From: the human T2T-CHM13v2.0 reference genome, Homo sapiens
Length of the DNA: 64,000 nt
Direction: 5' to 3' (one strand)
Assembly (NCBI RefSeq): GCF_009914755.1
Contig: NC_060925.1
In this document: piece by piece, positions 60,007-63,901 of the stretch
Position numbering within the stretch: the first letter of the stretch is position 1
Layout: each line of letters begins with the position of its first letter
The notes under the pieces: model-generated
Seen by the model: the letters and a program-made list of their open reading frames with translations, nothing else
Database searches by the model: none
Told to the model about the DNA's origin: nothing
Made by a program: the position numbers and the translations under genes

Positions 60007-60162
60007 CAACTTCTTTTTGGCCTGGATGGCTACATGTACATATTCACTGGGGACGGGGGACAGGCTGGAGACCCGATCCCTTTGGCATGTTTGGAAATGC
60101 TCAGAACAAGTAAGCTGGATGGAAGCTGGGCCCCTGTCCCTTTAAAGTGAGCCCCTGGTATG
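60007..60162 (+). other. Inverted partial copy of HHIPL2 exon 3 plus donor and 53 nt of intron 3
   Basis: Reverse complement of 63705-63855 with 9 substitutions and one 5-nt insertion. Confidence 0.95.
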
Positions 60163-60200
60163 AGAGAGAGATAGAGAGAGAGAGAGAGAGAGAGAGAGAG
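60162..60200 (+). repeat. (GA)n microsatellite
   Basis: Seen directly; abuts the inverted exon copy. Confidence 0.95.
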
Positions 60201-60398
60201 GTAATAGACAAGAAGGAGCCTTCTAGGGTGATGGAAGTGTTCTGCCTCTTGATATGGTTGGTGGTAATATGAGTGCATACATTTGTAAAACATCAAACAC
60301 CTGTGCTCTTACGTGATTATATTTCACCATATGTAAGTTATACCTCAGTAAAAATATTAAAATAAAAAGAGGGAGAAGGGACATCAGTCCTTCCTTAC

Positions 60399-60525
60399 CC
60401 ACTCATGAAGTCTCCAAAGATATACAGGCCATTGAGATTTGGGGATTCACAACCACGATAGACATAACCTCCAGTGACTGACTTCCCCACTGCATGGCCA
60501 TAAGCATAGATTGGCAGAACATCAT
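60399..60525 (-). CDS. HHIPL2: HHIPL2 coding exon (exon 5), 127 nt
   Basis: gacag|AT...GG|gtaagg; [43 protein letters not shown]. Confidence 0.95.
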
Positions 60526-61755
60526 CTGTCCAGGAGAGAGGAAAGAGAGTGAGTGTCGTGGCCTAAAATTGAAAGCTTCAAGGAGGAAGAAGGGGACTTT
60601 TTAATGCAGTTGCCTAATTCAGTAAAGAACACTTTACCTCTTGGTCTTCAGTAGGACAGGCAAGCAAGTGAATCATGTTTATTGTTCTCAATAGGCCATC
60701 CACAATATTTGCAAACTTCCTACTTAACTGCTATCTGCAGGCAGAGAGGAAGCCAAAAATTCCCTCCATCTATGAGGCAGTGACCTGGAAATCCACATGG
60801 CTAAGTTTTCCCCCTAGGTTGATATGGCAGAAACCCAGGTTTAAGGATATGGAAAATATTGTCACAGTCTGTAAGACTGCTTTATAAGTTAGAGGACAAG
60901 AAAAGACTAAGAAGAAGTAATAGAGTCAGAACACTAGAATTTTGAGCCAGGTGGAGTTTCTAAAGTACACCTTGATTATTGGTGTTTAGAAAGTGTCCTG
61001 GGCCGGGCACGGTGACTCACACCTGTAATCCCAGCACTTTGGGAGGCCGAGGCAGGCAGATCACGAGGTCAGGAGATCGAGACCATCCTGGCCAACATGG
61101 TGAAACCCCATCTCTACTAAAAATAAAAAAATTAGGTGGGAGTGGTGGTGCATGCCTGTAATCCCAGCTACTCAGGGGGCTGAGACAGGAGAATCACTTG
61201 AACCCGGGAGTCAGAGGTTGCAGTGAGCTGAGATCATGCCACTGCACTCCAGCCCAGTGACAGAGCAAGACTCTGTCTAAAAAAAAAAAAAAAAAGAAAG
61301 AAAGAAAAGAAAAAAAAAGAAAAGAAAGTGTCCTCTTACTTGCCTATGTGCAGAATATCATTTCAGTGGCCTGTCCCAGTTGGGAAATAAATAAAAACAT
61401 ACACCAATTTTGGTCTGCCAGTGGTTCTCAAAATAATATGCCTAAAATTAATGTAGGTAACTTATTTAAAATACAGATTCCTGGGTCAATCTCATGTCTC
61501 CAATCCACCCAAAATTCAAATTCATTAGGTCGAGGGCAGAGTCTAGGAATTCACTTTTTTAAAATAGCCACTGCCAAGATGTCTCTGGTGCCAGTGAGTG
61601 GCTGGAGGACCGGTTGGAGAAGCACTACACCACAGGACACAAACAAGGCGTGATTTAAATGACCTGCAGGGCAGGACATTCAGGTTTTATTCCCTACCTC
61701 CACCTCCAGCCCACTCAACTCATCCAAGAAATCACCCAGAGAGCTTCTTACTTAC

Positions 61756-62087
61756 CCAAAGAGGCATTGTGACAAAGTTTTTTGTCATAACATGCAAACC
61801 CTTCCTTTGCTCTCCAGCCATAGTTTCCACCTTTCAAAATGAGGTCAACCTCTTCAAACCTGTTCTGGCCCACGTCCCCACAGAATATCCGGCCTCGGCC
61901 CTGGAGCGTGATGGGGTCCCCTCGGTCCACAGCACAACGCCACATGTTCCTGATCCCATAGGCATAGATGGCGGGGTGGGCCCCTGGCTCAGAAACAAAT
62001 GGATTGTCCGAGGGGACTCGGTACTGCTTGCCATGTGAGCCTGCCCTGTTCACATCGATCCTTAAAACTTTTCCCAGCAGGGAACTT
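61756..62087 (-). CDS. HHIPL2: HHIPL2 coding exon (exon 4), 332 nt
   Basis: ctttcag|A...G|gtaagt; [12 protein letters not shown]...[17 protein letters not shown]...[12 protein letters not shown]...HNASL; phase fits neighbours. Confidence 0.96.
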
Positions 62088-63757
62088 CTGAAAGAAAGAA
62101 GGCCAAGAAGCAGAATGAGGTAAGCAAGGAAAGCCACAGGACTGGAAGAGATCACCCAGAAGGGCCGACTCATAGCTGATGCCAAGAGACTGCTAAGGAT
62201 CCCATGGGAAGATTTGACTTCTTATTTTCCTTCTTTTTTTGTACCCGCAAGTATGAGCTTGAAGATTTTCTTTTAAATCTATACAAGATATTTAAGACTG
62301 CCCCATGTTTGGCTCTAAGAGAACTACGAGGCAAAAGTTTGATGTGATCTTGGTCCATGTGACCCTGAGCAAGTTGCAGCTTCAATTCTTATTTTAATGA
62401 TGAGCACAGCTTCTCTCTGATTTGGTCTAATATGACAAAGTTTTTCAAGAAGCTAGTTATATTGTTTATTGTTTATTTAACAACGTGGTCAGTTAAAAGA
62501 ACAGAATAGAAGCTTCTGAGAGGCTCTGCCAATGACTGTGGTCTCTGGGGCTGACTTTCCTCATTTGAAAGTCAGAGGAGAGTAACTGATGGCCTTGTGC
62601 CACTGCTTCCTGTGAGGATAAGAAATTTCACGCTCAAGTAAAGGGTCTGGGATCTAATGAACACATGATAATCAGAGGCTGCTATTCTTTTTAATATATT
62701 GGCCAGGTGCAGTGGCTCATGCCTGTAATCCCACATTTTGGGAGGCTGAGGTGGGCGGATAGCTTGAGGCCATGAGTTCAAGAACATCCTAGGCAATACA
62801 GTGAGGCCCCATCTCTATTTAAAATATATAGCTAGATACATATTATTTACCTTGCGGTGTGGTTGTGATGTAAGGGTTAAATGAGTTACTGTGTATATAG
62901 CGTTTAATGCAATTCTTGAATCACAGTAGGTATTCGACAAATGTTAGCTTTGTATTATTATTAACCTCAATATTTTTATTACTAGGAATAATAGAAGCCA
63001 AGTGCTTACTGGGTGCAAAGGGCAGAAGGACCACATGACCTTTATCTAGGCAAGACAGCATCACTGGGCTCTGGCACCGTATTGTGTGGGTTGGGATTCT
63101 GTTTTTTCCACTTACTCATTGTACGACCTCTGTGTCTCCATTTTCTTGTCTGTAAAATGGATACTATTATATGTATACTTCATAGGATTCATTCATTCCA
63201 TGTGTAATTATGGAAAGACTCCCTTGTGCCAGGCACTGTCCTGAGTGCTGGTGATATATCAATTAACAAAATAGATATTAGATATAAATTCTTGCCCTTG
63301 AAGGTTGCTAAAATTACCTTCTCAAATGTAAAGTACTTAGACCAATGCCTGACAAGCTGCAAGCACCCAATACACATTGGCTCTCAGTAGTTAACTTCTC
63401 ATGTGTCTCCAGGGCCTAGCACAGCACCTGGAACATGGTGTTCAATAATATTATTGAGTTGAATTGAATTAGATGATTAGTGTGGTGAATAATGACCTGC
63501 TAATATATATATTTTTAAAATCCTGAATTCTCCTTTACATAACACTCTGACAGTTGTATTGAGCATCAATAATATTAACTACCAAAATATACTATGTCTG
63601 AAATTTATGGAACAGAAAACCAAATGTTCCTCCCATTGCCTCAGTGGAGTGGACTACATCTTGCAGTGTGTGATTTGAGTTTGATGCCATCCCTGCAAAA
63701 ACACCACACCAGGGGCTCACTCTGAAGGGACAAGGGCCCGGCCCCCATCCAGCTTAC

Positions 63758-63901
63758 TTGTTCTGAGCATTTCCAAACAGGCCAAAGGGATCTCCAGCCT
63801 GTCCCCCGTCCCCAGTGAATATGTACATATAGCCATCCAGGCCAAAAAGAAGTTGTCCGCCATTATGGTTTGAGGCTGGTTCTTCAATCTCCAAGATGAC
63901 C
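63758..63901 (-). CDS. HHIPL2: HHIPL2 coding exon (exon 3), 144 nt
   Basis: ttccag|G...AA|gtaagc; translates [52 protein letters not shown]-family beta-propeller (glucose/sorbosone dehydrogenase-like) motif. Confidence 0.95.

What the first reader, a model, noticed from the sequence alone, without database searches (positions are those of the whole stretch)
60007..63855. HHIPL2 intron 5 carries an antisense copy of exon 3's 3' end and splice donor, bracketing exons 4-5
Seen: 60007-60162 is the reverse complement of 63705-63855 (98 nt of exon 3, the GTAAGC donor and 53 nt of intron 3 in total). It differs by 9 substitutions and one 5-nt insertion. It lies 237 nt past the exon 5 donor, inside an old L1, between (TG)n and (GA)n tracts. 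It includes intron sequence and has no poly(A) or TSD, so it is not a spliced retrocopy. Exons 4+5 total 459 nt and exons 3-5 total 603 nt, both multiples of 3. Established: long-range reverse-complementary matches in pre-mRNA can mask splice sites, promote skipping and back-splicing, and attract ADAR. Inference: a ~150-bp intramolecular duplex could hide the exon 3 donor and loop out exons 4-5, acting as a built-in antisense splice switch. The flanks read (UC)n and (CA)n in the pre-mRNA, which are PTB and hnRNP L type sites.
Basis: partly seen in the sequence, partly recalled or inferred. Interest (0 to 1): 0.82.

Follow-up and report, generated by a model that had tools for sequence, protein, structure and literature searches.

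The report
Inverted exon-3 copy inside HHIPL2 intron 5
A 156-base upside-down copy of the end of HHIPL2 exon 3 and its splice signal sits in intron 5; it is real and unique in the genome and could zip the gene's RNA into a long double strand, but it looks like an old DNA-repair scar, with no sign so far that the cell uses it.

Summary
Window 60007-60162 (+) is the reverse complement of 63705-63855: 98 nt of HHIPL2 exon 3, the GTAAGC donor and 53 nt of intron 3 in all. The arms differ by 9 substitutions and one 5-nt insertion. It is the only extra copy shown in the genome. It interrupts one old dispersed repeat whose flanks stay collinear, between a (TG)n and a (GA)n tract.

Best reading: a DNA-level inverted templated insertion, far younger than its host repeat, roughly 10-70 Myr old on recalled rates, and decaying neutrally.

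As RNA the arms would form a near-perfect duplex. Cofold gives -300.6 kcal/mol, and 148 of 151 arm-A bases pair with arm B in the MFE of a 3952-nt segment, with the donor buried. It is the most complementary of 44 inverted pairs in the gene and the only one bracketing exactly exons 4-5.

No evidence of use was found. No RefSeq or Gnomon model skips exons 4-5 or 3-5. No paper links HHIPL2 to circRNA, editing or skipping. Wobble-preserving changes are not in excess (6 of 8, p=0.14).

The "switch" idea is untested. RNA editing and some exon 4-5 back-splicing are the likeliest by-products.

The parts
63705..63855 (-). Arm A, the parent: the last 98 nt of HHIPL2 exon 3 (63758-63855), the GTAAGC donor (63757-63752) and, in all, 53 nt of intron 3 (63705-63757).
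60007..60162 (+). Arm B, the copy. It reads in HHIPL2 sense on the plus strand, so it is antisense within the minus-strand pre-mRNA. It lies in intron 5, 237 nt from exon 5. It has 9 substitutions against arm A.
   Evidence: (91% identity, E 8.2e-55).
60070..60074 (+). A 5-nt insertion in the copy, relative to exon 3. It shifts the copied reading frame and forms a 5-nt bulge in the predicted duplex.
60110..60115 (+). An intact copy of the exon 3 donor hexamer GTAAGC, on the strand opposite to the gene. In the predicted duplex it pairs base for base with the real donor.
59965..60006 (.). (TG)n-type tract abutting the left junction. It reads (CA)n in the pre-mRNA.
   Evidence: A TG-rich stretch lies at the equivalent place in one other copy of the host repeat (L004).
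60162..60200 (.). (GA)19.5 tract abutting the right junction. It reads as a CU tract in the pre-mRNA and runs into a CAG.
59687..59946 (+). Left flank of the host, an old dispersed repeat. It is 68-77% identical to other genomic copies.
60217..60362 (+). Right flank of the same host repeat. It is collinear with the left flank in 2 of the 4 other copies examined.
61756..62087 (-). Exon 4 (332 nt), bracketed by the two arms.
   Evidence: (GSDH domain).
60399..60525 (-). Exon 5 (127 nt), bracketed by the two arms.

Best explanation
The feature is a small inverted intragenic duplication. About 151 bp spanning the exon 3/intron 3 junction of HHIPL2 were copied at the DNA level. The copy was inserted, inverted, 3.5 kb away into a much older dispersed repeat in intron 5. 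The likely route is repair of a break, or a replication template switch, at or next to simple-repeat DNA. This probably happened tens of millions of years ago. Since then the copy has drifted as neutral intron DNA.

Its consequence is physical, not designed. The HHIPL2 pre-mRNA carries two unique segments that can form a roughly 150-bp, nearly perfect double-stranded RNA. If intron 3 is still unspliced when arm B is made, the helix buries the exon 3 donor and brackets exons 4-5. That would favour some exon 4-5 back-splicing (a 459-nt circle) or failed use of the exon 3 donor. If intron 3 is already gone, the 98 exonic nt can still pair with intron 5 until that intron is removed, which makes exon 3 a plausible ADAR target. 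I expect these to be low-level by-products and not a regulated switch.

Shown: the anatomy, uniqueness, relative age and thermodynamic potential. Inferred: the mutational mechanism, the absolute date and every RNA-level consequence.
For: - Exact anatomy and counts of differences.
- Uniqueness: only 3 genome matches to the exon 3 region. These are the exon itself, the copy, and a 75%-identical exon-only match on chr14 that I take to be the paralogue.
- Not a retrocopy: the copy includes 53 nt of intron, has no A-run at its end, and the parent has no AATAAA upstream of the copy's end.
- Host repeat is collinear across the insert. The window carries 204 and 210 extra nt relative to two other copies.
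- Younger than its host. If it were as old as the host repeat (pairwise identity 68-77%), 13.5-20 substitutions would be expected in the 98-nt exonic part of the copy. Two are seen (P from 1.5e-4 down to 3e-7).
- Neutral decay. The copy is frameshifted. Six of 8 transitions keep a G.U pair, against 4 expected (p=0.14). The exonic-versus-intronic difference count departs only marginally from the expectation for a constrained parent exon (p=0.05-0.11).
- Duplex potential. Cofold is -300.6 kcal/mol, with a net gain of -209.5. Six Alu pairs of the same gene gain -62.7 to -173.7. In the MFE, 148 of 151 arm-A bases pair with arm B and every donor base is paired.
- Rank among inverted pairs. It has the highest identity of the 44 pairs in window-equivalent 44000-70000, and it alone brackets exactly exons 4-5.
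- Inverted templated insertions from nearby templates are a described class of germline variant (PMC8421209, passages read).
Against: - The junctions carry microsatellites, so the microhomology expected for template switching cannot be read. The 3.5-kb template distance is far beyond the 100 bp or less used to define MMB-TIs in PMC8421209.
- The exonic part of the arms is better kept than the intronic part (2 of 98 against 7 of 53, Fisher p=0.009). Against the neutral 1:2 expectation this is borderline (p=0.05 if the parent exon evolves at 0.3 of the neutral rate). That leaves some room for gene conversion, or for selection on the exon-pairing half.
- A nascent-RNA template cannot be excluded.
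- No data on orthologous primate loci, transcripts, editing or circRNA could be consulted. 'By-product, not switch' therefore rests on absence of evidence plus a neutral-looking pattern from only 9 substitutions.
Confidence: 0.6

Rival explanations
1. One reading: a selected, built-in antisense splice switch. Regulated formation of the exon 3 / intron 5 helix would be tuned by PTB and hnRNP L bound to the flanking (UC)n and (CA)n. It would hide the exon 3 donor and loop out exons 4-5, giving in-frame skipped mRNAs or a circRNA with a function.
For: - The helix is thermodynamically dominant and buries the donor.
- It is the only inverted pair bracketing exactly exons 4-5.
- 459 and 603 nt are multiples of 3.
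- CU and CA tracts flank arm B.
- Non-repetitive complementary sequences are reported to drive circRNAs such as cSMARCA5 (review PMC8391333, passages read).
- The exonic half of the pairing is better preserved than the intronic half.
Against: - No annotated model of the 6 skips exons 4-5 or 3-5.
- No paper links HHIPL2 to circRNA (1 hit, a review of osteoarthritis omics seen only in the search listing and judged unrelated from its title and abstract), to RNA editing (0 hits) or to exon skipping (24 papers hold HHIPL2 and 'splicing'; 15 were listed and none is about this by title or abstract).
- There is no significant excess of pairing-preserving substitutions.
- A buried donor cannot make the proposed exon 3-6 junction.
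- Exons 3-4 encode the core of the GSDH propeller. I infer that a 153- or 201-residue deletion would be non-functional.
- The microsatellites are as well explained as junction or host-repeat products.
- Intron 2 Alu pairs compete.
Confidence: 0.07
2. Arm B acts as an editing complementary sequence. The 98 exonic nt of arm A stay in the partly spliced RNA and pair with intron 5 until that 6.5-kb intron is removed. ADAR would then edit exon 3, and both arms, in clusters. That would recode conserved residues of the propeller blade, either as noise or as a primate-specific source of protein variants.
For: - The exonic part alone gives -190.8 kcal/mol with arm B. It has one mismatch and one 5-nt bulge.
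- Twenty adenosines lie in full codons of the paired exon part. For 16 of them, A-to-G would change the amino acid.
- Gabay et al. 2022 (PMC8897444, passages read) report that about half of human CDS editing sites are clustered. Many depend on a distant ECS, including reverse-oriented paralogous copies. That is the closest published analogue.
Against: - HHIPL2 does not occur together with 'RNA editing' in any paper of the library's main texts. This includes that survey.
- Editing needs expression in ADAR-rich tissue and a helix that survives helicases.
- Nothing shows that it happens.
Confidence: 0.2
3. A rival on origin only. The insert was copied from nascent, unspliced HHIPL2 pre-mRNA, by RNA-templated break repair or reverse transcription, and not from DNA.
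For: - On the plus strand the copy reads in the sense of the pre-mRNA and contains an unspliced exon-intron junction.
- The break lay inside the same transcribed gene, where nascent RNA is at hand (inference).
Against: - There is no poly(A), no polyadenylation hexamer in the parent near the copy's end, and no target-site duplication.
- Orientation and content are explained equally well by a DNA template 3.5 kb away.
- Nothing in the sequence discriminates between the two.
Confidence: 0.15
4. A chance similarity, an assembly artefact, or a fragment of a dispersed repeat family.
For: None found.
Against: - E=8.2e-55 genome-wide, with only three matches in the genome.
- The arms differ at 9 sites and one indel, which a recent assembly duplication would not show.
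- No Rfam family matches in 59000-64000.
Confidence: 0.01

Closest known systems
Intronic complementary sequence pairs that promote back-splicing: inverted Alu pairs, and non-repetitive pairs such as those reported for cSMARCA5 (review PMC8391333, passages read).
   Same: Two reverse-complementary segments in one pre-mRNA bracket internal exons (4 and 5). The pair is non-repetitive and unique. It is more complementary (91%) than every Alu pair of the gene, whose highest identity is 87%.
   Different: The upstream arm is not purely intronic. Sixty-five percent of it is exon 3, and it contains that exon's donor.
Exon / editing-complementary-sequence duplexes used by ADAR. This includes CDS editing clusters that depend on distant ECSs or on reverse-oriented paralogous copies (Gabay et al. 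2022, PMC8897444, passages read).
   Same: A coding exon faces a long, near-perfect complement in the same primary transcript. The complement derives from a copy of the coding sequence itself.
   Different: Here the complement is an intronic inverted copy of the gene's own exon, two exons downstream. It is not a neighbouring paralogue or an adjacent intronic ECS. No editing has been shown.
Inverted templated insertions from template switching or MMBIR, called MMB-TIs (Osia et al. 2021, PMC8421209, passages read), and polymerase-theta-type templated insertions (PMC7165422, search listing only).
   Same: An insertion that is an inverted copy of a nearby template on the same chromosome, present as a germline (here apparently fixed) event, with no larger rearrangement.
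   Different: The template is 3.5 kb away, against within 100 bp in that paper's search definition. The insert is 151-156 bp. Microhomology at the junctions cannot be read, because simple repeats sit there.
L1-mediated retrocopies (processed pseudogenes). Their defining features are recalled, not taken from a call.
   Same: A gene fragment lies at a second site inside a repeat-rich intron.
   Different: It contains intron sequence and an unspliced donor. It has no poly(A) tail and no target-site duplication.

Membership tests
Complementary-sequence pair driving exon circularisation | Reverse-complementary segments on both sides of the circularised exons, able to pair | tested here: met
   The arms at 63705-63855 and 60007-60162 bracket exons 4-5. 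In the MFE, 148 of 151 nt pair.
Complementary-sequence pair driving exon circularisation | Both arms lie in the flanking introns | tested here: not met
   Arm A is 98 nt exon 3 plus 53 nt intron 3. Only arm B is fully intronic.
Complementary-sequence pair driving exon circularisation | An observed back-splice junction (exon 5 donor to exon 4 acceptor) | not testable with these tools
   No reads or circRNA catalogues were available. One paper holds both HHIPL2 and circRNA, a review that looks unrelated from its title and abstract in the search listing.
ADAR exon-ECS duplex | A double-stranded structure between an exon and a complementary sequence of the same pre-mRNA | tested here: met
   In silico only. 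The exonic 98 nt with arm B give -190.8 kcal/mol.
ADAR exon-ECS duplex | A-to-I editing observed at the paired adenosines | not testable with these tools
   No RNA-seq was available. No paper holds HHIPL2 together with 'RNA editing'. Supplements were closed.
Inverted templated insertion (template switch / MMBIR type) | The insert is an inverted copy of a template nearby on the same chromosome | tested here: met
   The distance is 3.5 kb, larger than the 100 bp or less used in PMC8421209.
Inverted templated insertion (template switch / MMBIR type) | Microhomology at both junctions | tested here: inconclusive
   The left junction shows no shared bases beyond the copy. The right junction is ambiguous (GGTATG against GGTGTG). 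Both abut microsatellites.
Processed retrocopy | Spliced (no intron sequence), with a poly(A) tail and target-site duplication | tested here: not met
   It holds 53 nt of intron and an intact donor. (GA)n follows the end, not an A-run. The host repeat is collinear, with no duplicated segment seen.
Inverted Alu pair (IRAlu) | Both arms are Alu elements, that is, high-copy repeats | tested here: not met
   Only 3 genome matches. The other 43 of 44 inverted pairs in the gene fall on the repeated, Alu-type blocks. The name 'Alu' is my reading of the sequences.

The most novel reading that the evidence does not exclude
A primate-lineage inverted copy of a gene's own exon and donor has been co-opted as a self-targeting RNA element. 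By pairing with exon 3 it would set, tissue by tissue, how much HHIPL2 pre-mRNA becomes normal mRNA, how much becomes a 459-nt exon 4-5 circle, and how much carries a hyper-edited, recoded exon 3. The flanking CU and CA tracts would recruit PTB and hnRNP L as the tuning knobs. That would be a natural 'antisense oligo in cis', born from a DNA repair accident.
Probability: 0.06. Interest if true: 0.65.

Novelty: new member of a known kind. Interest (0 to 1): 0.33.

Why it matters
If the helix forms in cells, HHIPL2 would be a clean natural test case. A single, unique, non-Alu complementary pair with one arm on a live splice donor gives sharp predictions for three outcomes: donor masking, back-splicing and exon editing. 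Inverted Alu pairs do not allow such a test, because each Alu can pair with many partners.

It also shows how a small repair-type duplication can create long-range RNA structure, and possibly an editing site cluster, in one step.

HHIPL2 is little studied. One 2025 paper reports it as a positive regulator of Hedgehog signalling in lung cancer (PMC12848035; abstract seen in the listing). Any biological pay-off is therefore uncertain. If arm B is simply a drifting scar, the finding is an ordinary, if tidy, structural curiosity.

Tried and rejected
- Chance or repeat-family origin: rejected.
- Spliced or polyadenylated retrocopy: rejected. The copy holds intron sequence, has no A-run and no hexamer, and the host repeat is collinear.
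- Insertion at the same time as the host repeat, for example by reverse-transcriptase template switching during the repeat's own insertion: rejected on age (P from 1.5e-4 down to 3e-7).
- Proof that the host repeat is an L1: not achieved. No plus-strand ORF of 25 aa or more lies in 59470-59800. Pfam found nothing for a 37-aa window piece, and only a sub-threshold DUF7045 hit (E 0.042, 14.4 bits against a cut-off of 27) for a 49-aa piece of another copy. 'L1' stays a recollection.
- Polarity of the two exonic differences, using the chr14 paralogue as outgroup. At 63829 the paralogue shares the copy's C, which hints at a synonymous change in the parent. At 63780 it is uninformative.
- Selection for pairing: 6 of 8 transitions give G.U, p=0.14, not significant.
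- Literature: HHIPL2 with circRNA (1 paper, an osteoarthritis-omics review seen in the listing only), with 'RNA editing' (0), with splicing (24 papers, 15 listed, none on human exon 3-5 splicing by title or abstract). The one bovine paper I opened lists only an HHIPL2-AIDA read-through event.
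Full report
**1. The observation**

The repeat finder on 59000-64000 reports two adjoining inverted pairs. These are 60007-60074 with 63788-63855 (68 nt, 97%) and 60075-60162 with 63705-63792 (88 nt, 91%). They are one repeat split by a 5-nt indel.

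The alignment, counted by script, gives 9 substitutions plus five extra bases in the copy at 60070-60074. Two substitutions fall in the 98 exonic nt and seven in the 53 intronic nt. Eight are transitions.

RefSeq transcript NM_024746.4 confirms the exon numbering:
- Exon 3 is 63758-63901 (144 nt).
- Exon 4 is 61756-62087 (332 nt).
- Exon 5 is 60399-60525 (127 nt).
- Exon 6 is 53728-53873.

So 459 and 603 nt are multiples of three, as is exon 3 alone. The donor GTAAGC (63757-63752 on the gene strand) is copied intact at 60110-60115 on the opposite strand. (TG)n at 59965-60006 and (GA)n at 60162-60200 abut the copy.

**2. More than chance, and unique**

A search of the whole reference with the exon 3 region found three places:
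- the exon itself;
- the intron 5 copy (91% identity, E 8.2e-55);
- a 75%-identical match on chr14 confined to the exon, which I take to be the paralogue HHIPL1 (name recalled).

Matches in closed regions are not shown, so 'unique' means unique among what is visible. No Rfam family reaches threshold in 59000-64000.

**3. Where it landed**

The 841-nt stretch around the copy was searched against the genome. Of 464 first-look candidates, 38 were scored. One was the stretch itself, one was arm A, and 36 were dispersed copies at 68-77% identity. All 36 covered only window 59679-59946, the left flank.

I fetched four of those copies. All four matched the left flank at 68-69%. Two of the four also matched the right flank collinearly: L004 at 60217-60253 and L007 at 60287-60362. 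Relative to these two, the window carries 204 and 210 extra bases between the flanks. That is about the 156-nt copy plus part of the two simple repeats.

The alignment shows the host repeat resuming right after the (GA)n tract. One other copy (L004) has a TG/TATG-rich stretch at the equivalent place. So at least the (TG)n tract may have grown from native repeat sequence.

I recall the host as the 3' end of an ancient L1. No call establishes that.

**4. What kind of copy**

It carries 53 nt of intron and an unspliced donor. It ends in (GA)n, not in an A-run. The parent has no AATAAA before the point where the copy ends. No duplicated target segment is visible. So it is not a processed retrocopy.

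It is also much younger than its host. If it had the host's age (pairwise identity 68-77%, about 0.14-0.21 substitutions per site per lineage), the 98-nt exonic part of the copy should carry 13.5-20 changes. It has 2 (P from 1.5e-4 down to 3e-7).

Treating the parent exon as evolving at 0-1 times the neutral rate, the per-lineage divergence since the copy is 0.030-0.044, with 95% limits of 0.014-0.084. With recalled primate rates of 1.0-2.2e-9 per site per year, this is very roughly 10-70 Myr.

The best fit is a DNA-level inverted templated insertion. This means break repair or replication template switching that borrowed a template 3.5 kb away on the same chromosome. Such insertions are a described class of germline event, though usually shorter and with closer templates (PMC8421209, passages read). 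Junction microhomology cannot be judged, because simple repeats sit at both junctions. A nascent-RNA template cannot be excluded.

**5. Is it decaying or kept?**

- The copy is frameshifted.
- Of the 8 transitions, 6 leave a G.U pair in the RNA helix and 2 make C.A mismatches. Against the 50% expected, p=0.14.
- The exonic part differs less than the intronic part (2 of 98 against 7 of 53, Fisher p=0.009).
- That contrast is largely expected. In the exonic part only the copy is free to change, whereas in the intronic part both arms are. Against that expectation the deficit is borderline (p=0.11, 0.05 or 0.011 for a parent exon at 0, 0.3 or 1.0 of the neutral rate).
- The chr14 paralogue shares the copy's base at 63829. 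This suggests that one of the two exonic differences is a synonymous change in the parent.

Nine substitutions cannot settle selection. Nothing here demands it.

**6. RNA potential**

In gene sense the two arms cofold at -300.6 kcal/mol, with three single mismatches and one 5-nt bulge. The net gain over their self-folds is -209.5 kcal/mol. Six Alu-Alu pairs of the same gene gain -62.7 to -173.7.

In the minimum-energy fold of the 3952-nt pre-mRNA stretch 63901-59950, 148 of the 151 arm-A bases pair with arm B. None pairs elsewhere. Every base of the donor is paired.

Within 44000-64000, 14 of 16 inverted pairs of 60 nt or more involve the single oppositely oriented Alu-type block at 50633-50881. 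The other two are the halves of this repeat.

I extended the gene to exon 1. Of 44 inverted pairs (E of 1e-10 or lower), this one has the highest identity (91.0%, next 87.4%). It ranks 9th by bit score. It is the only one with exactly exons 4 and 5 between its arms.

However, an oppositely oriented Alu-type block in intron 2 (64104-64586) pairs with blocks in introns 3, 4, 5 and 6. Nine of those rows bracket exons 3-5. So other helices would enclose or cross this one.

**7. What it would do**

This section is inference. Arm A is transcribed about 3.6 kb before arm B. Intron 3 is 1670 nt long.

If intron 3 is still present when arm B emerges, the full helix can form and would deny U1 access to the exon 3 donor. 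The outcomes consistent with that are:
- intron 3 retention;
- exon 2 joined to exon 4 or exon 6;
- back-splicing of exon 5 to exon 4, giving a 459-nt circle.

The last matches the way complementary sequences, repetitive or not, are reported to promote circRNAs (PMC8391333, passages read).

If intron 3 is already spliced, the 98 exonic nt remain and can still pair with intron 5 (-190.8 kcal/mol) until that 6.5-kb intron is removed. That geometry matches exon-ECS substrates of ADAR. Gabay et al. 2022 report that many clustered coding-sequence editing sites depend on distant complementary sequences, including reverse-oriented paralogous copies (PMC8897444, passages read). Twenty adenosines lie in full codons of the paired exon part. 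At 16 of them, A-to-G would change the residue.

Exon 3 and exon 4 translations match Pfam GSDH positions 111-137 (E 0.0067, below the curated cut-off) and 145-223 (E 1.6e-13) of 332. Exon 5 gave no hit. In-frame skipping would therefore remove the core of the propeller domain, and I would not expect a working protein.

**8. Evidence of use: none found**

- None of the six HHIPL2 models skips exons 4-5 or 3-5.
- HHIPL2 with circRNA gave one paper, an osteoarthritis-omics review seen in the listing only.
- HHIPL2 with 'RNA editing' gave none.
- HHIPL2 with splicing gave 24 papers, of which 15 were listed. None concerns these exons by title or abstract.
- The one paper I opened is bovine and lists only a read-through event.
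- Supplementary tables, where circRNA and editing-site lists live, were closed. Reads and primate genomes were not available. This absence is therefore weak.

**9. Verdict**

The feature is real, unique and neatly defined. It is an old inverted templated duplication of an exon-donor junction into a downstream intron. It belongs to known kinds on both counts: as a mutation, and as a non-repetitive complementary pair or ECS-like arm in a pre-mRNA. Its one unusual trait is that one arm sits on a live splice donor.

My confidences:
- Neutral scar with, at most, low-level RNA by-products: about 0.6.
- Measurable editing of exon 3: about 0.2.
- A selected switch: about 0.07.

Interest is modest (0.33). 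The predictions are sharp and cheap to test. The gene is obscure, and nothing yet shows an effect.

Noticed in passing
window 60153-60200 (gene sense, minus strand): Read in the direction of the gene, the (GA)n tract is a ~39-nt CU tract. It runs straight into ...CAUACCAG|GGGCU at the edge of arm B. This looks like a polypyrimidine tract plus a CAG acceptor. No exon is annotated there. If the helix forms, this acceptor-like site would be masked too. It was not scored with a splice-site model.
   Followed up: no
window-equivalent 64104-64586 (intron 2; L010): An Alu-type block lies in the opposite orientation to the Alu-type blocks of introns 3-6. It gives many long inverted pairs (up to 314 nt, about 80%) that bracket exon 3, exons 3-4, 3-5, 3-6 or 3-7. 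These are competing or enclosing helices, and candidate drivers of other HHIPL2 circles.
   Followed up: partly
window 50633-50881 (intron 6): This is the only oppositely oriented Alu-type block within 44000-64000. Fourteen of the 16 inverted pairs of 60 nt or more in that stretch involve it.
   Followed up: partly
window 9387-9859 and 9840-10672: Tandem arrays sit inside an intron of the lncRNA LOC124905750. One has nine copies in register at about 40-nt spacing. The other has larger units repeated at 49-, 127- and 308-nt offsets, up to 95% identical.
   Followed up: no
window 60437-60734: Gnomon model XM_054338771.1 uses an extra exon at 60638-60734 inside intron 4, where its coding part ends at 60724. 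Its last exon stops inside exon 5 at 60437. This is unrelated to the inverted copy.
   Followed up: no
G000:C14:93888400-93888557 (L008): The only other genomic match to HHIPL2 exon 3. It is 75% identical, confined to the exon, and has its own GT after ...AACAAG. It is presumably the HHIPL1 exon. It has no matching intron sequence.
   Followed up: partly
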